A stretch of 64,000 bases of DNA from IMG/VR virus record IMGVR_UViG_3300005364_000001, one strand, 5' to 3'. The position numbers were made by a program, and so were the translations under genes. Origin of the DNA: an uncultured virus (IMG/VR IMGVR_UViG_3300005364_000001). Lineage: Duplodnaviria; Heunggongvirae; Uroviricota; Caudoviricetes. The notes below the pieces were generated by a model that saw only the letters and a list, made by a program, of their open reading frames with translations, was not told the DNA's origin and made no database searches. Of the stretch, positions 32-57,175 are shown piece by piece (position 1 is the stretch's first letter; every line of letters begins with the position of its first letter).

Positions 32-646
32 ATGAGGGCGCCGCCTAAGCGCTTCGCGGCGCCGGTGGTGCTCGCGGCCGATCCGCCGTGGCTCTTTCGC
101 GACAAGCTGCCCGGCAAGCGCCGCGGGGCGAGCGCGAACTACCGCTGCATCACGCTTGAGGAGATCAAGGCCTTTCGGTTGCCGCGCCAGGTCGTGAGCG
201 CGCCGGACGCGGTGCTGTTTCTGTGGCGTGTGTCGGCGATGGAGCAGGAGGCGCTCGACGTCGCGCGCGCCTGGGGCTTTTCCCCGTACGGCGAGCTGAT
301 CTGGCAGAAGATGACCAAGCACGGCAAGGAGCACTTCGGCATGGGGCGGATCTTCCGCGCGGCGCACGAGACGTGCCTGGTCGCGGTGCGGGGCAGGGTG
401 ATCCCCGCGGTGCATGACGTGCGGTCGACCTTCCGCGCGCCGGTGGGCCTACACAGCGAGAAGCCGGCGGCCTTTTACCGGGTGATCGAGCGCCTGTACC
501 CCGACGCGCACCGATATGAGATCTTCGCCCGACGGCCGCGGGTAGGCTGGGCGCAGTGGGGCAACGAGCTCGGCGCGCTCGAGCACGAGCAGCTGAGCAT
601 GGCGATAGGGGAGGGGGACGACGATGGGGACAAGCAAGCAGTCTGA
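32..646 (+). CDS. MT-A70 family adenine methyltransferase
   Basis: ADPPW catalytic motif, LFLW, W-K...GMG, HSEKP, and EIFAR..R.GW..WGNE motifs typical of MT-A70. Confidence 0.9.
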   Translation: MRAPPKRFAAPVVLAADPPWLFRDKLPGKRRGASANYRCITLEEIKAFRLPRQVVSAPDAVLFLWRVSAMEQEALDVARAWGFSPYGELIWQKMTKHGKEHFGMGRIFRAAHETCLVAVRGRVIPAVHDVRSTFRAPVGLHSEKPAAFYRVIERLYPDAHRYEIFARRPRVGWAQWGNELGALEHEQLSMAIGEGDDDGDKQAV

Positions 647-9177: not shown

Positions 9178-9374
9178 TCGACGTCTACCGGGTGAGGGTG
9201 CGCGCGACGGATGAGCTCGGGCGTGAACGCGAGTTCGCCGAGTTCATCACGGCGACTTCCGCCGACGAGGCGGGCGCCTTGGTCGAGGCACGAGTCGGGC
9301 TGCGACGGCTGGCGATCACGTATGTGGGGGCTGCTCAACGCGGGCGCTGGGAGCCGATCCCGGGAGACAAGTGA
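9174..9374 (+). CDS. Small hypothetical protein
   Basis: GTGA coupling at both ends. Confidence 0.55.
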   Translation: MIDVYRVRVRATDELGREREFAEFITATSADEAGALVEARVGLRRLAITYVGAAQRGRWEPIPGDK

Positions 9375-9571
9375 GCCGGTTTCGCGTGGCCGCGCTCGAC
9401 CCGTACACGCTGCGCGCGTGCGCGGCCGAGCTCGAGCACCTCGCCGAGATCGCCGACGCGATCGCGCAGGTGGATCCCACGCACGCGGGGATCGGAAATG
9501 GCAAGCGGCTCACCGCGACCCGCTGGCGCAAGCGCGCCGAGCGCATCGAACGCGCGCGAGGGCGCGGCTAA
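9371..9571 (+). CDS. Small hypothetical protein
   Basis: GGAG RBS, GTGA coupling. Confidence 0.55.
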   Translation: MSRFRVAALDPYTLRACAAELEHLAEIADAIAQVDPTHAGIGNGKRLTATRWRKRAERIERARGRG

Positions 9572-9588
9572 GGCGATACCCTCGGGGC

Positions 9589-10896
9589 ATGCCGAGAGCC
9601 CCCGCAGCCGCCGCCAAGAAGCCCCCAAAGTCGCGCGCCGAGTACGACCTGCCGCCGGCGGTATGGGTCGCGACCAGCGAGCTCAAGCCGTGGATCAAAA
9701 ACCCGCGGCGCAACGATCACGTGGTCGACGACGTGGCCGAGTCGATGAAGCGCTTCGGGTTTGGCGCGCCGCTGGTCGCACGCCTGGCCAACGGCGAGAT
9801 CATCGCAGGGCACACGCGCTTGAAGGCCGCGCTCAAGCTCAAGTTTCCGCAGGTGCCCGTGCGCTACCTCGACCTCAGCGAGAAGGAGGCGCACCTGCTC
9901 GCCGCCGCGGACAACCGCCTCGGCGAAAAGGCCCAATGGGATGAGCGCGCGCTGCTCGAGCTGCTCAGCGAGTACGCGCCAGGCGACCGCACGCTCGCCG
10001 GGTGGTCGGACAAGGACCTCGCCGCGCTCGAGCGCGCCGCCAAGATCGGCAACGACGTGGTCGAGGACGAGCCCCCGCCGGTGCCCAAGGTGCCGATCAC
10101 CAAGCCGGGCGACGTCTGGCAGCTCGGGCGGCACCGGCTGATCTGCGGCGACTCGACCAAGCCCGAGACCTACGAGCGGCTTCTGCACGGCCGCCGCGTG
10201 GGCCTCATGGCCACCGATCCGCCGTACGGCGTCGAGGCCAAGACCGGCACCCGTAACCCCTTCTCGCCGGCGTACAAAAAGGGCGAGGCGCGCAACCGCT
10301 CGATCGAGAATGACGAGCTCAAGAAGGGCGACCTCGAGGAGTTCCTGCGCGCGGCGTTCGAGGCCTGCGCGCCGACGCTCAGCCCCGGGGCTAGCTGGTA
10401 CATCTGGTTCGCCGGGACGCACTCGCGCGAGTTCATCGCTGCGACCGATCAGCTCGGCGGCTTCAAGCACCAGCTCGTTTGGATCAAGGGCAAGTTCGTG
10501 TTCGGGCGGTCGGACTACCACTACAAGCACGAGCCCTGCCTGTACGGTTGGACGCTGGGCGCGGCGCACACCTGGCTCGGCTCGCGCGATCAATGCTCCG
10601 TGTTCGAGCTCAAGCTCGACAAGGCCGTCGGCGAGCTCGTGCACCCGAGCGTCAAGCCGGTGGAGCTGTACGCGATCCCGATCCGCAACCATCTCGGGGC
10701 CGACGGCGCGGTGCTCGACATCTTCGCCGGCACCGGGCCCGCCTTCTCGGCGGCCGAGCAGCTCGATCGCATCTGCTACGGGATTGAGCTCGCGCCCGGA
10801 TACTGTGATGTGATTGTCCAGCGCTGGGAAAAGCTCAGCGGCCAGGGGGCCACACGCGAGAGCGGAGCACGCCGAGCGCAGACCACGCAGGGATAA
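9589..10896 (+). CDS. ParB-N domain plus N6/N4 DNA methyltransferase
   Basis: KNPR.N...FGF..P....GEIIAGHTR..A (ParB-N), LG.HRL.CGDST, TDPPY, HP..KP, VLD.F.G.G. Confidence 0.9.
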   Translation: MPRAPAAAAKKPPKSRAEYDLPPAVWVATSELKPWIKNPRRNDHVVDDVAESMKRFGFGAPLVARLANGEIIAGHTRLKAALKLKFPQVPVRYLDLSEKEAHLLAAADNRLGEKAQWDERALLELLSEYAPGDRTLAGWSDKDLAALERAAKIGNDVVEDEPPPVPKVPITKPGDVWQLGRHRLICGDSTKPETYERLLHGRRVGLMATDPPYGVEAKTGTRNPFSPAYKKGEARNRSIENDELKKGDLEEFLRAAFEACAPTLSPGASWYIWFAGTHSREFIAATDQLGGFKHQLVWIKGKFVFGRSDYHYKHEPCLYGWTLGAAHTWLGSRDQCSVFELKLDKAVGELVHPSVKPVELYAIPIRNHLGADGAVLDIFAGTGPAFSAAEQLDRICYGIELAPGYCDVIVQRWEKLSGQGATRESGARRAQTTQG

Positions 10897-12978: not shown

Positions 12979-14508
12979 GTGCGGACGGCGCTGCGCGCGG
13001 GGCCCGTGCGGCTGGTGGCGCTCAGCGCGCGCGGCAAGCTCGAGCAGCGGGTGCGCGCGCGCCGGGAGCAGGTGCTGCGCCGCGCGCGCACCGACCCGGT
13101 CGCGTTCGCCGAGTACGTGATCCTCGACGAGGTCACGCAGAAGCCGATCCGGCTCTCGACGATGCACCGCGCCTGGCAGCAGTACCTCACGGCCAACCCG
13201 TGGGCGGTGCTGGTCGCTCCAGTCGAGCACGGCAAGACGACTATTTTGGTCGCGCGCGTGCTGTTCGAGATGGGGAAAAACCCCGACATCCGCATCGGCT
13301 GGATCTCGGACAGCGAGGAGCAGGCCCTCACGGTGGTGGGCATCATTCGCCGCTACATCGAGGAGTCGCCCCGCCTCGCGCAGGTGTTTCCAAGGCTCAA
13401 GCGCAGCACTCGCCTCGGGCACACGTGGAACAAGCACGCGCTCGAGATCGAGCGCTCGCCCTACCTACGTAACCCAACGCTCAGGGCCTACGGATCGGGC
13501 ACCAAGATCGCCGGCGCACGCCTCGACCTGATCGTCTGCGACGACATCCTCAACCTCGACAACACGCTCACGCTCGAGGCCTGCCAGAAGACCCAACACT
13601 GGTTCGACGTCATGGTGCTCACGCGCGCGCAGGACAACCCCGAGACGGGCGAGCGCGCGAAGCTGTGGGTCGTGGGGACGCCCTTCACCGATAACGACAT
13701 CCTGCACGAGCTGCCCAAGCGCCCGAGCTTCGCAAGCCGCATCTACAGCGCGGTCGAAAACCCCGACGATGCGCCCGACAAGTGGCGCACGGTCTGGCGC
13801 GGCGTGTGGCCGCTCAAGCGGCTGCTCACGCGGCTGCGCGGCATGCTGCCCTCGGCGTTCGCGCGGAAGTACCTCTGCCGCGTCGTCAACGACATCAACA
13901 GCCGCTTCCCCGAGGCGACGATCAAGCAGGCGTTCGAGCTCGGCCGCGGGCTCACCTTCCAGACCCGGCGCCCGGTCGTGTACCCGGGGCCGCGCGCGCT
14001 GCGCTGCTGGACCGGCGTCGACCTCGGCGTGGGCGAGAAGGAGGGCGACGACCTCACCGCGCTGGTGACCGTGGCGCTGCGCGAGGACCGCACGCGGCAG
14101 GTGATCGACATCCGCTCAGGGCACTGGACCGCGGATGCGATCATGGATCAGATCGAGGAGGTCTATTACCGCTTCGAGTCGAGGGTGATCGTCGAGTCGG
14201 TGGCGGCGCAGCGCTGGTTGCTCCAGTTCGTGCGCAAGAGCCGGAAGGTGCCCGTCGAGCCCTACAACACGACCGCGCAGTCGAAATGGGATGAGACCTT
14301 CGGCATCGAGTCGATCGCGGTCGAGCTGCGTCAACGCCTGTGGCGCTTCCCGAGCGGCGAGACCGGCGAGGACTACCACCCCGAGCTGTGGGCCCTGCGC
14401 AACGAGATGATGAGCTACCGGCCCAAGGCGCACACGGGCGATCGGCTCATGGCACTCTGGTTCGCACGTGAGGGCATGCGCCGCACGCTCGGGGGGAAAT
14501 TCAAATGA
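12979..14508 (+). CDS. terL: Terminase large subunit
   Basis: Walker A APVEHGKTT, Walker B LIVCDD, VGTP coupling motif, nuclease GVDLG and HTGDRLMALW. Confidence 0.92.
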   Translation: MRTALRAGPVRLVALSARGKLEQRVRARREQVLRRARTDPVAFAEYVILDEVTQKPIRLSTMHRAWQQYLTANPWAVLVAPVEHGKTTILVARVLFEMGKNPDIRIGWISDSEEQALTVVGIIRRYIEESPRLAQVFPRLKRSTRLGHTWNKHALEIERSPYLRNPTLRAYGSGTKIAGARLDLIVCDDILNLDNTLTLEACQKTQHWFDVMVLTRAQDNPETGERAKLWVVGTPFTDNDILHELPKRPSFASRIYSAVENPDDAPDKWRTVWRGVWPLKRLLTRLRGMLPSAFARKYLCRVVNDINSRFPEATIKQAFELGRGLTFQTRRPVVYPGPRALRCWTGVDLGVGEKEGDDLTALVTVALREDRTRQVIDIRSGHWTADAIMDQIEEVYYRFESRVIVESVAAQRWLLQFVRKSRKVPVEPYNTTAQSKWDETFGIESIAVELRQRLWRFPSGETGEDYHPELWALRNEMMSYRPKAHTGDRLMALWFAREGMRRTLGGKFK

Positions 14509-14807
14509 CCGGATCCATCACAACGATCGACGGCAAGGTCGCCGCGTTCCACGGCGGCGACTTCGGCGACGCGCTCGAGTGCCTCAAGGGCGGGGGTCTC
14601 GTGCAGCGCGACGGCTGGAATGGCCAAGGCATGTGGCTGCGGCTCGAGGACCCAAGCGGCGCCCTCACGAAGGCCTTCATCGCGATGCGCACCGCCGACG
14701 CTGAGCATGTGCCTTGGCTGGCCTCGCAGACCGACCTCCTGGCGACCGACTGGGTCGGGTACCTGCCCCTGCCGCCGCCGTCTCCTCAAGAAGACAGATC
14801 CACATGA
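14505..14807 (+). CDS. DUF2829 / Tad2-like protein
   Basis: FG.AL..LK.G..V.R.GWNG.GM and VPW.ASQTD.LA.DW signatures. Confidence 0.85.
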   Translation: MTGSITTIDGKVAAFHGGDFGDALECLKGGGLVQRDGWNGQGMWLRLEDPSGALTKAFIAMRTADAEHVPWLASQTDLLATDWVGYLPLPPPSPQEDRST

Positions 14808-16397: not shown

Positions 16398-16639
16398 GCC
16401 GCGCCCGGCGCCGGCGGCGCTACTGGGCCAGGCGCCGCGCTCGAGCGGCCGCCCGGGCGGACCTGGCGTGGTTTCACGCCGAGTGCGACCGGCTCGAGGG
16501 CGTGCTCGCCGAGCGCGAGGCGGTGCTCGAGCGGCTGGGGCTGTTCGGGCCCGCGGCGATCTTGAGCCAGGTCACCGTGCAGATGCAGCGCCTGGCCGAG
16601 CTGCGCGCACGCAGCGATCGCGGCCATGCCGACCGCTAA
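16394..16639 (+). CDS. Small hypothetical protein
   Basis: Coupled ORF, high GC3. Confidence 0.55.
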   Translation: MSRARRRRRYWARRRARAAARADLAWFHAECDRLEGVLAEREAVLERLGLFGPAAILSQVTVQMQRLAELRARSDRGHADR

Positions 16640-16880
16640 GCCAGCTCGCCGGCGTCGCTTGCTGGCCATGCTCGAGGCCGACGATCTCGTGCGCAGCGCG
16701 CGCTCGGCGCTGCCCCTGCTGCGCGACTCGGGCACAAACCGCGAGCTCACCGAGGCCGAGCTCGCCGCCCGCTGGCGCGCCCTGGCGGTCACGTACCGGG
16801 CGAAGGGGCGCCTGGCCATGGCCGCCTGGCTCGAGGCGCTGGTCGCCGAGCTCGAGCGGCTGAGCCGCCGCCGCCACTGA
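16626..16880 (+). CDS. Small hypothetical protein
   Basis: Overlapping ORF, high GC3. Confidence 0.55.
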   Translation: MPTAKPARRRRLLAMLEADDLVRSARSALPLLRDSGTNRELTEAELAARWRALAVTYRAKGRLAMAAWLEALVAELERLSRRRH

Positions 16881-16908
16881 CGCCGGGCCCCCCCGGCACC
16901 GACGTCAG

Positions 16909-17058
16909 CTCGACCCCTTGAAAAGCTCACCGGGTCGCCTGGCCAGGTGTCCGCGTCAGTGGCGTCGCTGCCTTTGAAAGCAGCGAGCCGGCGCCGCGTC
17001 GTAGTGAATCCGGGGCAGCGTCCCGCCCCCGACCGGGTGAGCTTTTCAAACCGTCGAG
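16909..17058. repeat. Long inverted repeat enclosing internal hairpins (candidate structured RNA)
   Basis: TTGAAAAGCTCACCGGGTCG (16918-16937) vs CGACCGGGTGAGCTTTTCAA (17030-17049), 19/20 complementary; outer CTCGAC/GTCGAG. Confidence 0.75.
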
Positions 17059-17130
17059 GCAAGCCATGTAGCGTCTTGTGCGGCCAACGCGCAAGCAGCG
17101 ATGCTCGCGATCAGCCGATACCCTCCAGCG

Positions 17131-17415
17131 TCGGCCAGGCTGGGCCCGGGAGTCATTACCCCGCGCCCGGCCGCCTTGATCTCGGGGGGCCTGCCGTCGT
17201 AGGCTGGTGCCGGTTCTGAGCCCTTGAAGCTGACCCTGTGTCGGGGGCCGGCGTGGGACGGGGGCTCGGAACCAAACCTGCTGCAAAATCAAGCGTCAAT
17301 CGTACGGGGCCCCGCCCCGACAACGGTTGACGCGGTTCGATGCGCAGAAGTTTGATTATGTAAACTCTGACGCAGCGCGTCAGGAGTAGGGCGGTTCCCG
17401 AGTCATCCCGGGACC
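17131..17415 (+). ncRNA. Candidate multi-hairpin ncRNA (~285 nt)
   Basis: TACCCT -10 at 17119; at least five stems, several with G-U pairs that work only on the + strand; no coding-like frame. Confidence 0.55.
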
Positions 17416-17424
17416 TTGCTCGCG

Positions 17425-17640
17425 TTACCGGCCCGGCTCGTCGCCGGGGCCTGTCAACATCTTTACAGGCTCGGGCCCCGCCTTGACCCAGGCGACGAGC
17501 TCGCTCGCGCACTCGGCGCACAGCTCAAGGCAGGACATCGGCGAGGCCTCGCGCAGCTTGTGGCTCAGGCAGTGCACGACGATCGGCCCGCCGTTGATCA
17601 GCTGGTAGCAGCGGTCGCAGACGCAATAGGGGGACCTCAC
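17425..17640 (-). CDS. Small zinc-finger protein
   Basis: CDRC and ELCAEC pairs; GTGA coupling. Confidence 0.65.
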   Translation of the reverse strand: MRSPYCVCDRCYQLINGGPIVVHCLSHKLREASPMSCLELCAECASELVAWVKAGPEPVKMLTGPGDEPGR

Positions 17641-21126: not shown

Positions 21127-21671
21127 GTCCCTCTGCCGCCTTTCCCGTAGTCGCCCTCGCGCTCGGCCTTCTGCCGCTTGAGCACGTCGATCGCGCGCCT
21201 GAGTATGTGCTCGGCCCAGACGTGGCGACTGACGCCGCGAGGCAGCAGTCCCGGTACCTCGCGCCAAAGCTCGTCGAAATCGGCGCGGGCCGTGAACGAC
21301 TGCTTGATCATCTCGACCTTCTGGCCGGTCGTGGGGTCGATGCGCCGGGTCTCGTAGGGCTTGAGCCGCGAGCCGGCTCGGCTGCCGCGCTTGGGCTTGT
21401 CCGGTTTCCCCGCGGGGAAGCTGGCCGCCTGCACCGCGGGGGCTTTGGGCGGTTTCCCCGCGGGCGGGCTGAGCTCGTCATCCGCGGGGAGCTCGGGCAG
21501 CTGCCCCGCGGGGACGGCGGCAGGCTGCACTTCCGGTTTTTCGACCTCGCTCGAGGATTTATCCGTGGGTTTTCCCGGCGACTGGTCATAAGAGCCAGGG
21601 TCGTCGAGGGGCGGCGGCTCGGGCACCAGGAGGCCGATCGTCGAGCGCAGGTGCGTCTTCGGTGGCGTCAT
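21123..21671 (-). CDS. Putative centromere-binding adaptor (type Ib ParB/ParG-like): disordered N-terminus, C-terminal RHH-like domain
   Basis: ATGA-coupled to parA; Pro-rich N-terminus; KQSFTA strand followed by two helices. Confidence 0.65.
   Translation of the reverse strand: MTPPKTHLRSTIGLLVPEPPPLDDPGSYDQSPGKPTDKSSSEVEKPEVQPAAVPAGQLPELPADDELSPPAGKPPKAPAVQAASFPAGKPDKPKRGSRAGSRLKPYETRRIDPTTGQKVEMIKQSFTARADFDELWREVPGLLPRGVSRHVWAEHILRRAIDVLKRQKAEREGDYGKGGRGT
21407..21514. repeat. Five 24-bp-spaced copies of the TCCCCGCGGGGA palindrome inside the adaptor CDS
   Basis: CGCG cores at 21411, 21435, 21459, 21483, 21507. Confidence 0.85.
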
Positions 21672-22546: not shown

Positions 22547-22847
22547 GCCCCGCGTACCCGAGGCGCCGCTTCCACGCGGGGACAAGCCGCTGTGTCCCCG
22601 CGGACCGACCCGCCAGTATCCCCGCGGGGATGACTCACATCATGCCCGCGGCGCCGCGGCGTAGTTTCCCCGCGGGGATGCAGGCCAGCGGGCACGCGGG
22701 GGACGGGTAACCGTTTCCCCGCGGGGATGAGGCGCTCGCGTGACGCGGGCCAGATGGCCTAGTTCCCCGCGGGGAAGCTGAGCAAACGCACCGCGTAGAA
22801 GGGGCCCGGATTCCCCGCGGGGCCGCTGCGCACGAGACCCGCGGGGA
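22547..22847. repeat. Array of 13 palindromes (consensus TCCCCGCGGGGA) with 24-bp period; putative parS centromere
   Basis: CGCG cores at 22551, 22575, 22599, 22623, 22647, 22671, 22695, 22720, 22744, 22768, 22792, 22816, 22840. Confidence 0.9.
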
Positions 22848-22887
22848 GGCTGGTATGGGCGAGCAAACCGGCGGCCGATGGCTTAGA

Positions 22888-40292: not shown

Positions 40293-40353
40293 CCTCGGGG
40301 CCCTGTGGTACCCTCGCGTCACCGCGCGAAGCCAGGATCTCGAGGGGGATCGG

Positions 40354-53845: not shown

Positions 53846-55392
53846 GCGACGCAGCCAAGACCCAGGGCGAGCTCGAGCGCACCTTCCGCGACGTCACGGA
53901 CCCCGGCTATCACCTGCCGCTCGAGGAGGACCCGCTCAGCTGGGATCCGATCGCGGCGATGGCCACGACGGCCGCACGCGCCTCGCGCGCCGTGCACACC
54001 AACAGCCAGTCCTTCTACCTGCTGCCGCACTCGCGCCAGACCGGCGAGAGCGCCAGCGGGGCGCGCCGCGCCGAGGCCTGGCACCAGGTGCGGCGCCGCG
54101 GGCACGCGGGGCAGGCGCTCTTTGTCCCCGCGGGGAAGCGGGTCGAGTACTTCCTGCGCGACTCACGCGGGCAGCCCGCGCGGCTCGAGGCCTACGAGCT
54201 GGCCGAAGACGTCGTCTTCGCGGCCGGCGAGGTGGGCCCTGTGGCGGTGCGCGTGCGTGCGGTGCGGCCCGGCGATCAAGCCAACCTGCCGATCGCCGAT
54301 CGCGCTGCGCTGGTGGCCGAGGGCGTGCGCACGGTCGCGCTCAGCGCGTACGGCGGCGTCTCGCTGACCGACACGGGTAACCCCGACGTCTTCACGGCGG
54401 CGGATGTGGGACGCTACCTGCGCCTTCAGGGCGAGGCGCCGCGGCGGGTGAAGGCCTACTCGCAGGACGCGCTCGGGCGGGGCCAGGTCGAGCTCGAGGG
54501 CGACTCGATCACCGGCACGGGGCCGGCGGTGCTGCTCGAGTGGAGCGAGCTCGGCGTCGAGCTCGAGCAGCTCGAGGCCTTCAGCGGCGGCCGGCACGCG
54601 ATGCTCGACCAGATCGGGCTCGAGCGCGACATGCCGCGGGGCCCGGGCGAGGGCGACGAGGACTTCGCGTATCGGATCTCGAGCCTGCCCGACGTGATCA
54701 CGCCGGCGGCGCTCGAGCGGATCTGCGCGCGCATCCTGAGCCCGCTCGGGATCTCGTACGCGCTGCACGAGGTGCGCGACCCGGAGCTGCGGGGCTTCGT
54801 GCTCGACCTGACCCCGCTCGACGCCGGCGGCATGTGCTCAGACAGCTCCTGGGCGGGTGGGGTGCTGCTCAGCGATAGCGCGAGCAAGCGCCTGTTCGTG
54901 GTCTGCATCGAGCGCGCGATCAACGTCGGCTACGAGGGCGGCCTCGCGTTCGACTCGATGAGCTCAGGGGTCAACGCCTACGACGTCGGCTCGAGCTCGG
55001 GCGACGGGCGGCCGACGGGCTACCTCAACGCGCTGCGCGCGCTGCTGGTCGACCTCAACGCGGCGCGGGGCGGTGGCACCGCGTTCCGGGTGGTCGAGCG
55101 CACCGCCGTCGAGCCCTACGGGCTGCACGCGGTCACGCTCGAGGTGGGGATAGCTGCCGGTACGCCCGAGTACCTGGCGGCCCGGGACGAGGCGCTGGCG
55201 GCGCTGGTGCAGCAGCTCAGGCCTGGCGAGCGCACCAGCGAGGTCGAGCTCGCCGAGGCGATCGCCGGCCAGCTGCTCATGCGGGGCCTCGACGCGACCG
55301 GCGTAACCGTGCTCGTCACCGGGGGCGACCTGGTGCCCGGCCCGCTCGAGGTGCTCAACATCGCGCCCCTGGGCGGCGGCGGTGGCAGCTAA
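53842..55392 (+). CDS. Baseplate wedge-like protein (gpI-like)
   Basis: LD.IG.ER...R..GE.D..F..RI motif. Confidence 0.6.
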   Translation: MSDAAKTQGELERTFRDVTDPGYHLPLEEDPLSWDPIAAMATTAARASRAVHTNSQSFYLLPHSRQTGESASGARRAEAWHQVRRRGHAGQALFVPAGKRVEYFLRDSRGQPARLEAYELAEDVVFAAGEVGPVAVRVRAVRPGDQANLPIADRAALVAEGVRTVALSAYGGVSLTDTGNPDVFTAADVGRYLRLQGEAPRRVKAYSQDALGRGQVELEGDSITGTGPAVLLEWSELGVELEQLEAFSGGRHAMLDQIGLERDMPRGPGEGDEDFAYRISSLPDVITPAALERICARILSPLGISYALHEVRDPELRGFVLDLTPLDAGGMCSDSSWAGGVLLSDSASKRLFVVCIERAINVGYEGGLAFDSMSSGVNAYDVGSSSGDGRPTGYLNALRALLVDLNAARGGGTAFRVVERTAVEPYGLHAVTLEVGIAAGTPEYLAARDEALAALVQQLRPGERTSEVELAEAIAGQLLMRGLDATGVTVLVTGGDLVPGPLEVLNIAPLGGGGGS

Positions 55393-55795
55393 GGGCAGGG
55401 GGGGCCTTCCCTGAGAACACGGGCTCTTAGGGGGATCCCCACCTGGTAGATCGCGCCCCCGGGGCATGTCAGCAGGTGTCCGTCGCCGGATTCGCCTGTG
55501 ACTCCGTGTGCGACGGGGTAGGTACGACTCCCGTCAGGGCGCAAGGACTTGCGCAGATAGTGCTGTCTGTCTTACAGACGGATCACATCAAGCAGCAGAC
55601 AAGCAACAAATAGCACGAAGCCCCAGCATCGCGGTCAAAGGTCCTGCAAGACCTACGCGACACAAGGGCTTCGGATCGAGCACCAATGTTCGAGGAATCT
55701 AACGCGTTTCTGCGCCGCAAGCAAGCATGCGGCGCAGAAAGCGGTAACGTACGGATCTCATTTAGGTATACGGCGAAACGGCAAGGCGGTGTGCC
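55393..55795. promoter_or_regulatory. Structured intergenic region upstream of rep-like gene
   Basis: Lower GC; perfect 13-bp stem TTTCTGCGCCGCA/TGCGGCGCAGAAA (55707-55740); CGAAGCCC/GGGCTTCG stem. Confidence 0.55.
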
Positions 55796-57175
55796 TTGTT
55801 GAGATCCAGCTGTCCACGGTCGGACAACGACAACGCCGCCCCGCCGCCGGCGTTCGACGCGAAAGAGCTGCGCGCGGCCCGCGCCGCCTGGCGCCTGAAG
55901 GCTCGCCAGCGGCGCCTGTCACCGAGGGCGAGGCTGCTCGTCGACTACCTCGCGACGCTGAAGAGCTTCCCCCACGCATTCTTTCGCGTGAGCAAGCTGG
56001 CTGAGGAGCTCTGCTGCTCGTCGGCGCAGGCGAGGCGCACGGTGCGCGAGGTCGAGCGTGCGGGCCTTCTGGCGCATGCCCCGTACTACGGCTCGATCGG
56101 CGAGCAGCGGGCCAACGACTACCTAGCGTGCGACGGCGAGCGCTGGTGCTGGCGGCTGCTCGGCGGCGACGAGCTCGGGCGCGCCGAGGGCCGCCTGCTC
56201 GTGAGCTCGCTGCTGAGCGCGACCTGGCGCTGGCGCGATGAGGATCTGGCCACGTCGCCCGCCGTGCTCGAGGCGCTGCTGCGCGCGACTGGCGCCTGGG
56301 GACTCGCGGCTCGTAAGTGCAAGCCCCCCCTTGCAGATATGACCCCCCCCCCTTGCATGGATGCCACCCATAGTCTTAACGCTGAGTCTGCGGACGGGGA
56401 GGCAGATCAGCAGCAGCAAGCAGAGCCGCCGCCTGTGGATAACCCACCGAGTGACGAGAGCGACGAGCCGGACCTCGACGCCGACGACCGCGACCTCAAG
56501 CCCGACAACCCCGAGATGGAGCTCGACGAGGCGCAGCTCCAGGAGCAGCTCGACCGACTGGCGGCCCAGCTCGAGCTCGAGGACGCCGAGGTTGCGCAGC
56601 CCGACCTCACGCCCGACACTGCGGCCGCACCCTTCGGCGCGCGGGCATCGTCACCCGCTGCGGGCGACGCGAGGTTCGGGTCTCGCGCAGCTCCTGCGCC
56701 GAGGGGGGCTTCTCGGGGCCCGGGCCCGAGCAAGGTCTTCGCGCTGCCGCTCGAGCTGCGCGCTAGGCTGGTGGGGCGCTTTGACGAGACCCGGGTGCGG
56801 GCTCTCGAGCGGGCGCTCGGGCAGGCCAAGCGATCGCCCGAGGTGATGATCGCCGCCGCGCACATGCTGCTCGAGCGCAACGCGCTCACCCCCGCGAGCT
56901 ACGTGCACAGCTTGTTCGACGACGCGGCCGAGCAGCTCGAGCGGGCGCTGCACGAGCCGCCGCCAGCGAATGCCCCTACGAGCGGCCAGGCGCCGCCCAG
57001 GGCGCGCGCGGCACCGAAGCCGCCTGACCCCTTGCTCATGCAGGTCCAGACCGCCCGTGAGCGCCTCGAGGCGCTGCCCAGGCACGATCCCCGACGGCCC
57101 CAGCACGAGCAGCGGCTCAAGGAGCTGCTCGACCAGGTGGCAGCCCGCGACCTTGGGCGGACGGCGGCCTCGTGA
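55796..57175 (+). CDS. Replication initiator-like protein with N-terminal winged HTH
   Basis: LSPRARLL..YL...F....KLAEEL.CS.....R....LE.AGL-like HTH; internal repeats and DnaA box; start uncertain. Confidence 0.6.
   Translation: MLRSSCPRSDNDNAAPPPAFDAKELRAARAAWRLKARQRRLSPRARLLVDYLATLKSFPHAFFRVSKLAEELCCSSAQARRTVREVERAGLLAHAPYYGSIGEQRANDYLACDGERWCWRLLGGDELGRAEGRLLVSSLLSATWRWRDEDLATSPAVLEALLRATGAWGLAARKCKPPLADMTPPPCMDATHSLNAESADGEADQQQQAEPPPVDNPPSDESDEPDLDADDRDLKPDNPEMELDEAQLQEQLDRLAAQLELEDAEVAQPDLTPDTAAAPFGARASSPAAGDARFGSRAAPAPRGASRGPGPSKVFALPLELRARLVGRFDETRVRALERALGQAKRSPEVMIAAAHMLLERNALTPASYVHSLFDDAAEQLERALHEPPPANAPTSGQAPPRARAAPKPPDPLLMQVQTARERLEALPRHDPRRPQHEQRLKELLDQVAARDLGRTAAS
56324..56442. 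promoter_or_regulatory. Putative origin inside rep gene: CCCCCCCTTGCA direct repeats plus DnaA box
   Basis: Two CCCCCCCTTGCA copies 22 bp apart; TGTGGATAA at 56434-56442 is the reverse complement of consensus TTATCCACA. Confidence 0.55.

What the first reader, a model, noticed from the sequence alone, without database searches (positions are those of the whole stretch)
17117..17415. Candidate novel ~285-nt structured ncRNA with a repeated GAGUCAU loop at both ends
Seen: in a gap between convergent operons, a TACCCT hexamer (the same -10 seen before several genes here) precedes consecutive stems: GGCTGGGC/GCCCGGCC (17138-17172), GGTTCTGAGCCCTT/GGGGGCTCGGAACC (17212-17273) with an inner helix, GCGTCAATCGT/ACGGTTGACGC (17293-17333), a stem at 17341-17374 with an alternative CTGACGC/GCGTCAG pairing, and a final GGTTCCCG/CGGGACC hairpin. 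Mismatches in the first three stems are G-U on the + strand, as expected for RNA-level selection. The first and last hairpin loops both show GAGTCAT. I do not recognise it as tRNA, tmRNA, SRP or RNase P. Inference: a phage ncRNA, possibly a protein sponge or a two-state switch.
Basis: partly seen in the sequence, partly recalled or inferred. Interest (0 to 1): 0.7.

Follow-up and report, generated by a model that had tools for sequence, protein, structure and literature searches.

The report
Orphan structured RNA in uncultured phage
A gene-free gap in an uncultured phage probably holds a previously undescribed folded RNA of about 290 letters with its own promoter, back to back with a second folded RNA; no relative or transcript was found, so its job (best guess: a bait for a protein) is untested.

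Summary
The stems are real: 17133-17424 folds at z -5.1 on +, -2.8 on -, and the finding ranks 2nd of 850 windows. The promoter is the best evidence. This phage uses -10-only TAnnnT promoters (11 leaderless starts against 1 expected). G[AG]TACCCTC occurs five times: four before genes, one before this RNA. So the RNA would run about 17132-17421. New: a second structured domain lies divergently on the - strand (17119-16905, z -4.8), and the G-U preference flips at the promoter box.

Weaker than claimed: the GAGUCAU repeat is marginal (27 of 600 shuffles match it); the switch fold is 10-20 kcal/mol worse; stem P3 also reads as a terminator of the convergent operon. No Rfam, tRNA or tmRNA match. 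No homologue turned up in related phages or sampled genomes, so covariation is untested, and no RNA run was available. The scan had not noted it on other DNA.

Verdict: probable (about 60%) orphan phage ncRNA of no catalogued family. Protein decoy is the best guess (35%); a cluster of transcription signals is the main rival (30%).

The parts
17119..17124 (+). -10 box TACCCT (in GATACCCTC); inferred start 6-8 nt downstream, about 17131-17133
   Evidence: same 9-mer class precedes genes at 9577, 39632, 40309, 59384
17133..17421 (+). Candidate ncRNA (RNA-R), about 290 nt, a row of stem-loops P1-P6
   Evidence: z -5.06; 82 pairs with p>0.8, 9 of them G-U
17138..17172 (+). P1 hairpin, apex G-AGUCAUUAC
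   Evidence: z -3.4 on +, -1.95 on -
17212..17273 (+). P2: 15-bp stem (3 G-U), internal loop, two 4-bp inner helices
   Evidence: z -4.2 on +, -2.9 on -
17278..17347 (+). P3 domain: closing helix, 7x7 internal loop, 11-bp stem 17293-17333, 6-bp tip
   Evidence: z -5.5 on +, -3.6 on -
17283..17333 (-). P3 read on the - strand: hairpin plus U-rich tract, possible intrinsic terminator of the convergent operon
   Evidence: lenient survey, 81 hits in the window; like-shaped hairpins with U tracts in L148
17349..17383 (+). P4 (AT-rich, 17349-66) and P5 (perfect 7 bp, 17367-83)
17355..17383 (-). sigma70-like site CTGACG-17-CATAAT; possible antisense promoter, unproven
   Evidence: 1 of 2 such sites in the window; shuffles give 0.2 per 4 kb
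17384..17421 (+). P6 terminal hairpin, apex G-AGUCAUCC; lower helix less certain (p 0.6)
16905..17119 (-). Second, divergent structured domain (RNA-L, about 215 nt): G-U-rich 5' hairpin 17117-17081, long closing stem 17058/16909 around a multiloop
   Evidence: z -4.8; 62 pairs with p>0.8, 6 G-U (+ strand: 39 pairs, 1 G-U)
16626..16880 (+). Last gene of the left operon (84 aa, unknown)
17425..17640 (-). Last gene of the right operon (71 aa, Cys-rich, unknown)

Best explanation
17132-17421 (+) is a stand-alone non-coding RNA gene of a temperate, probably plasmid-like tailed phage. It is made from a -10-only promoter of the class that also precedes tail and packaging-region genes. SHOWN by computation: non-coding gap, strong + strand fold, matching promoter box at the right distance. 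INFERRED: it is transcribed, probably late in infection, and ends at the hairpin abutting the convergent gene. GUESSED: it works in trans as a nuclease-resistant row of stem-loops that binds and titrates a protein. The two terminal hairpins would present the same AGUCAU loop to two copies of a host or phage RNA-binding protein, as CsrB/CrcZ-type decoys do with other motifs (recalled). Its 3' half shares DNA with the terminator of the opposite operon, and a second structured RNA runs divergently from the same promoter region. About 0.6 that the RNA exists as an independent transcript; about 0.35 for the whole statement with the decoy mechanism.
For: Fold z -5.06 on + against -2.82 on - (84, 85); every sub-domain tested prefers + (125). 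9 G-U among 82 confident pairs. TAnnnT + 6-8 nt + ATG occurs 11 times among 392 ATG-opened ORFs against 0.97 expected, P 8e-9, the pattern described for high-GC bacteria in PMC3160421 (passages). All five G[AG]TACCCTC sites face a + strand unit: three leaderless genes, the tail-sheath gene and this RNA. The G-U preference flips from - to + exactly at this box. No credible ORF: three long and three short overlapping frames have no Pfam hit and are not in the protein collection; the three long ones also have no PHROG hit. No complement longer than 12 nt elsewhere in the window, so no evident cis target. It lies among small accessory genes that include a Tad2-like anti-defence gene.
Against: No homologue, hence no covariation. 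The nearest phages available as DNA (terminase 71% and 66%) lack it in the DNA held. The loop repeat is marginal (27 of 600 shuffles; 43 of 422 windows), and two sites are few for a sponge. The 3' half folds nearly as well on - (z -4.25 against -5.55), and 80-nt sliding windows show no consistent strand preference. P3 plus the upstream A-tract reads as a - strand terminator. There is no clear U-tract after P6. G-U counts favour the strand that was folded, by construction. No candidate partner protein was identified.
Confidence: 0.35

Rival explanations
1. The gap is a cluster of ordinary transcription signals at a convergent junction (terminators, 3'-stabilising and processing hairpins). Any transcript from the TACCCT box acts only in cis, as an insulator or antisense/collision brake on the - operon.
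For: P3 has the hairpin + U-tract form on - (126). The relative L148 has two terminator-like hairpins of the same outer stem/internal loop/inner stem shape. The phage has other strongly folded intergenic stretches. An earlier AI note (e1-6262540) reads hairpin sets in another phage this way.
Against: P1 and P2 lie beyond the putative - terminator, prefer the + strand (z -2.84 against -0.51) and follow a promoter box. More than 500 nt of nested structure is more than two terminators need (inference).
Confidence: 0.3
2. A sense/antisense pair that controls maintenance of the plasmid prophage, like a type I toxin-antitoxin locus: a - strand message from the CTGACG-17-CATAAT site carries a 36-aa ORF (17156-17046) whose start codon is the complement of the P1 loop, and the + RNA is its antisense repressor.
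For: The site is 1 of 2 sigma70-like sites in the window. The + promoter lies inside the ORF. The ORF is among the 9 most hydrophobic of 191 short ATG ORFs. The phage has ParA, parS-like arrays and no integrase hit.
Against: About 3 such sites are expected by chance in 64 kb (scaled by hand from 47). Hydrophobicity peaks at only 1.47 and GC3 is 0.66, below the 0.84-0.96 of the leaderless genes listed. No Pfam hit and not in the protein collection. The - message would have to read through P3 and its U-tract.
Confidence: 0.12
3. A trans-acting base-pairing sRNA: the loops are seeds that pair with AUG-AC starts of (leaderless) mRNAs of host or phage.
For: The loop is the complement of a Met-Thr start, and 5 of the 11 leaderless phage genes begin ATGAC (read from 44, 49, 69 and the ORF lists).
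Against: Only 5 bp against those starts; the sixth loop base mismatches the common ACC codon. No phage complement over 12 nt (88). The host is unknown, so host targets were not searched.
Confidence: 0.12
4. A DNA-level element (operator array, origin or miniature inverted-repeat element) whose symmetry only looks like RNA structure.
For: TGACGC/GCGTCA occurs 6 times in 16878-17382, the densest cluster of its 54 sites. 16909-17058 has 29-nt inverted ends.
Against: The six sites are three inverted pairs, so not independent. Nested helices with strand-specific G-U pairs. Single copy in the window. No target-site duplication seen; no transposase hit.
Confidence: 0.08
5. A two-state RNA switch through exchange of the two GCGUCA/UGACGC helices.
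For: The exchange pairings exist as sequence.
Against: Forced alternatives give -147.0 and -136.7 against -157.0 kcal/mol; pair probabilities 3e-7 and 1e-11 (88). No downstream gene on the + strand to control.
Confidence: 0.03

Closest known systems
CsrB/RsmZ- and CrcZ-type protein-decoy RNAs (recalled)
   Same: Own promoter, a few hundred nt, row of stem-loops, a motif repeated in hairpin loops
   Different: No GGA loops; only two copies of the motif, at marginal significance; no Rfam match; no partner known
TwoAYGGAY / Bacillaceae-1 type two-loop RNA motifs (recalled; TwoAYGGAY also named)
   Same: Two hairpins with the same loop word
   Different: Different word; loops 250 nt apart; single copy in the window; no Rfam match
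Phage/prophage sRNAs in general (review PMC10884466, passages; SvsR and others, search listing 123)
   Same: Accessory non-coding gene between phage operons
   Different: Longer and more folded than typical base-pairing sRNAs (recalled); no target found
Large ornate phage-associated RNAs GOLLD, ROOL, OLE (10.1101/2024.12.08.627333, listing only)
   Same: Highly structured ncRNA of unknown function in a mobile element
   Different: Much smaller; no multi-way junctions or pseudoknots predicted; no tRNA genes in the window; no Rfam match
Caulobacter sRNA CC3513 (RF01528)
   Same: Best Rfam hit; first hairpin similar
   Different: 18.6 bits against a gathering score of 40, E 0.75; the main domain is missing: chance
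Intrinsic terminators / RNase III-type hairpins of phages
   Same: P3 on the - strand has the shape and U-tract
   Different: Accounts for one of six stems only

Membership tests
Any Rfam 15 family (4227) | Score at or above gathering threshold | tested here: not met
   0 hits in the window; best sub-threshold CC3513, E 0.75-1.3; RNA-L best E 0.62 (112)
tRNA / tmRNA | Cloverleaf or tRNA-like ends with tag frame | tested here: not met
   ARAGORN 0 genes. A GCA-AAA-started 15-codon frame ends in P3 (107), but there are no tRNA-like ends
Met-tRNA anticodon mimic | 7-nt loop Y-U-CAU-R (recalled consensus) | tested here: not met
   Both loops have U before CAU but G at 32 and a pyrimidine at 37 (read from 1, 68)
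CsrB/RsmZ | Several GGA motifs in loops | tested here: not met
   No hairpin loop of the predicted fold carries GGA
Protein-decoy RNA (works like) | Repeated exposed motif beyond chance | tested here: inconclusive
   27 of 600 shuffles and 43 of 422 windows do as well
Protein-decoy RNA (works like) | Binds and titrates a protein | not testable with these tools
   Needs pull-down or Grad-seq
6S / Ms1 RNA | Long rod with central bubble closed by 5'-3' pairing; Rfam match | tested here: not met
   RNA-R is a row of local hairpins; no Rfam hit
C4/CI/CA-type phage antisense RNA | Loop-complementary target boxes in a phage leader | tested here: not met
   Longest complement 12 nt, at chance level; one 10-nt match to the P6 apex at 22627-22636 inside the parS-like array (88)
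Type I toxin-antitoxin | Small hydrophobic ORF opposite an antisense RNA | tested here: inconclusive
   36-aa ORF, peak hydropathy 1.47, 9th of 191; no family or collection hit (131-133)
Retron/DGR/DRT ncRNA, omega/re-RNA, Y RNA | Cognate RT, TnpB/IscB/Cas or Ro60 gene nearby | tested here: not met
   No such hit among the 93 ORFs scanned in Pfam and PHROGs; most ORFs have no family
REP/MITE-like repeat | Multiple copies, target duplication | tested here: not met
   One copy in the window by three covariance models
Conserved structured ncRNA family | Covariation among homologues | tested here: inconclusive
   Only identical copies found, so the test could not be run
Expressed ncRNA | Strand-specific transcript with defined ends | not testable with these tools
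   No RNA holder listed; the one run laid has contigs only

The most novel reading that the evidence does not exclude
The gap is a back-to-back cassette of two undescribed structured RNAs driven by overlapping -10 promoters, carried as an accessory module by a plasmid-like phage. The + RNA presents two CAU-containing loops as bait for a host RNA-sensing defence or translation-initiation factor: an RNA anti-defence decoy beside the Tad2-like gene, of a kind not yet catalogued.
Probability: 0.1. Interest if true: 0.8.

Novelty: new variant of a known kind. Interest (0 to 1): 0.45.

Why it matters
Phage non-coding RNAs are thinly catalogued; the review PMC10884466 (passages seen) calls viral non-coding transcripts understudied. 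A 290-nt folded RNA with its own promoter and no Rfam family, paired with a divergent second RNA, would be a new lead for RNA-based host manipulation in an unexplored clade of high-GC phages. As it stands it is a single-genome prediction: worth one targeted homologue search in the close relatives known to exist, not yet a discovery.

Tried and rejected
Homologue searches, all empty apart from identical copies of this phage (L001/L004/L005/L146):
- blastn of INPHARED phages and PLSDB plasmids: only 20-34 nt matches.
- blastn/nhmmer of 217 fetched loci, mostly terminase-related.
- BLAST of 50 whole virus records (15 of 50 with 15-30 nt matches, best E 2e-4; taken as chance).
- Single-sequence covariance models R1/R2/R3 (weak by nature) on 51 virus records (only the own record, plus one E 0.048), on 72, 81 and 39 sources, and unfiltered on the three nearest phages. 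Best there: E 0.006 inside an ORF, and E 0.13 for an intergenic hairpin in L148; the L148 alignment was unconvincing (10 of 200 shuffles as good).
- Phylum samples centred on genomes titled Archangium (401 by DNA, 28 with short matches E>4e-4; 151 each by R2 and R1, 0), Streptomyces (0 of 301) and Acidobacteriota (0 of 301) (65, 98, 141, 139, 140).

Expression: no RNA holder listed. The one run, probably DNA, covered 16761-16958 with one low-depth contig and not the RNA; no evidence either way.

Host: not resolved. Terminase relatives in 2 of 401 genomes of the Archangium phylum, the best at 34% identity; cultured phages at 25-30%.

Rejected: two-state switch; pseudoknots or kissing loops of 5 bp or more between unpaired regions (none); anticodon mimic; tmRNA; paralogy of RNA-L and RNA-R (best 9-10 of 1000 shuffles under one of three scoring schemes each, 137: marginal).

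Literature: GAGUCAU search, 163 papers, 20 listed, none on phage or bacterial RNA; other searches seen as listings only. No supplements were read, so candidate-motif tables outside Rfam (e.g. PMC8040213) were not checked.

Full report
Context. The window is most of a 64-kb, 70% GC tailed phage: terminase at 12979-14508, portal, capsid, tail sheath, baseplate. It encodes ParA (22, 23) beside arrays of a CCCCGCGGGG palindrome, and none of the 93 ORFs scanned hit an integrase, so a plasmid-like prophage state is inferred. The finding lies in a 544-nt gap (16881-17424) between converging operons of small unknown genes. The wider cluster includes a Tad2-like gene and an NrdR-type zinc ribbon. The host is unresolved.

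Is the structure real? Yes, as a prediction. 17117-17415 folds at z -4.91 on + and -3.52 on - (4, 5); 17133-17424 at -5.06 and -2.82. Among 850 windows of 299 nt it ranks second (z from a regression on one shuffle per window). The fold is a row of local domains: P1 17138-72, a weak hairpin 17189-208, P2 17212-73, P3 17278-347, P4 17349-66, P5 17367-83, P6 17384-421. On + there are 82 pairs with p>0.8, 9 of them G-U; on - 73 and 4. All six sub-regions tested prefer +, the 5' half clearly (z -2.84 against -0.51) and the 3' half only slightly (-5.55 against -4.25). Against this, 80-nt sliding windows show no consistent preference, and G-U counts favour the folded strand by construction. The overlapping reading frames tested have no family and are absent from the protein collection.

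Promoter. This is the strongest independent evidence. Among 392 ATG-opened coding-like ORFs, 11 have TAnnnT 6-8 nt upstream against 0.97 expected (P 8e-9). This is the leaderless signature described for high-GC bacteria in PMC3160421 (passages seen). G[AG]TACCCTC occurs five times, all on +: leaderless starts at 9577, 39632 and 59384, about 40 nt before the tail-sheath start at 40309, and at 17119 (69). About one copy would be expected by chance (hand estimate from base composition). The RNA should therefore start at 17131-17133, just before P1. Late timing is an inference from the genes that share the box.

A second element. The left part of the gap folds on the - strand: 17119-16905 has z -4.8 (138), 62 confident pairs with 6 G-U, against 39 pairs with 1 G-U on + (134). 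Its first hairpin starts at 17117, so the strand preference flips at the TACCCT box. A GAnnnT box lies 7 nt before 17119 on -; that class is only weakly supported (10 against 3.7 expected at spacing 7, but 9 and 7 at spacings 4 and 10). The simplest picture is two divergent RNAs, each running into the end of a flanking operon. A low-depth contig carries a change at 16916 that would turn a C-C mismatch of the closing stem into G-C; it is a single contig at depth 2.8 and may be an error.

What is weaker than first read. The shared loop word is marginal: 21 of 400 and 27 of 600 shuffles, and 43 of 422 other windows, give a shared apical word at least as long. The switch is unfavourable by 10-20 kcal/mol. 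P3 read on - is a hairpin followed by a U-rich tract 90-130 nt after the last stop of the - operon (a lenient survey with 81 hits in the window), and the relative L148 has two hairpins of the same build with U tracts. P3 may therefore be, or also be, a terminator. A sigma70-like site on - inside P4/P5 is one of two in the window but is not beyond chance.

Homologues. None beyond identical copies. Searches covered cultured phages and plasmids, 217 fetched loci, 50-51 whole virus records by BLAST and three covariance models, four pattern scans of viral contigs and one of genomes, and samples of three phyla. The nearest phages whose DNA I could read (terminase 75%, 71%, 66%; L006, L148, L007) lack it in the DNA held; L148 was seen only 10 kb either side of the terminase and L006 is a 6-kb fragment. 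Closer relatives (79-83%) exist but their DNA could not be fetched. Single-sequence models are insensitive, so absence is not shown. The pattern fits an accessory element. No RNA run was available.

Mechanism. With its own promoter, no + strand gene downstream, no long complement in the phage and no cognate RT or nuclease gene found, a trans-acting RNA that binds protein is the most economical reading. I put it at 0.35, with 0.6 for the RNA existing as an independent transcript. A cluster of cis transcription signals is close behind (0.30). A type I toxin-antitoxin-like pair built on a 36-aa - strand ORF that starts in the complement of the P1 loop (0.12; 131-133), a start-codon-pairing sRNA (0.12), a DNA element (0.08) and a switch (0.03) follow. 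The loops contain CAU but fail the recalled anticodon-loop consensus at two positions.

Known families and novelty. Nothing reaches an Rfam threshold; no tRNA or tmRNA. Decoy RNAs, two-loop motifs, 6S/Ms1, C4/CI antisense RNAs and type I systems are compared from recall. Eight paper searches (83, 89, 90, 91, 96, 117, 118, 123 and passages in 95, 136) showed no description of this element; supplements were not read. The scan's own index has no look-alike. I class it as a new variant of a known kind (phage-encoded structured ncRNA): probably real, uncatalogued, unproven. Interest 0.45.

Noticed in passing
window 16905-17119 (-): Second structured domain divergent from the finding; z -4.8, G-U pairs favour the - strand; no Rfam hit or homologue.
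   Followed up: yes
window 55517-55815: Most stable window of the genome (z -5.9 on +), several long hairpins just upstream of an HTH_36 ORF (55796-57175); possible replication-control RNA or leader; no Rfam hit.
   Followed up: partly
window 21400-21530, 22600-22850, 54105-54147: Arrays of a TTCCCCGCGGGGAA-like palindrome flanking parA and a small downstream gene: parS-like; with no integrase hit, suggests a plasmid prophage. ParA homologues sit on contigs of the same lengths as related terminases.
   Followed up: partly
window 22627-22636: 10-nt match on the - strand to the P6 apex, at the edge of a parS-like palindrome; chance not excluded.
   Followed up: partly
window, 11 gene starts: Leaderless genes with TAnnnT boxes 6-8 nt before ATG; L148 shows the same plus a possible GAnnnT class (69, 107, 134).
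   Followed up: yes
window 14505-14807: Tad2-like (Thoeris anti-defence) domain gene directly after the terminase.
   Followed up: no
window 32-646 and 9211-10896: MT-A70 methyltransferase and a ParB-N6/N4 methyltransferase fusion.
   Followed up: no
window 16912-17117 vs 17218-17409 (+): Long weak alignment hinting at an old tandem duplication; 9 of 1000 shuffles under one of three scoring schemes: marginal.
   Followed up: partly
L148 19935-20225: About 290 nt of degenerate GGCAN-like pentamer repeats at the convergent junction, where this phage has its structured gap.
   Followed up: no
L148 14803-15270: Intergenic stretch with a P3-shaped hairpin, two TGACGC sites and an AT-rich part; R2 E 0.13; not shown to be homologous.
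   Followed up: yes
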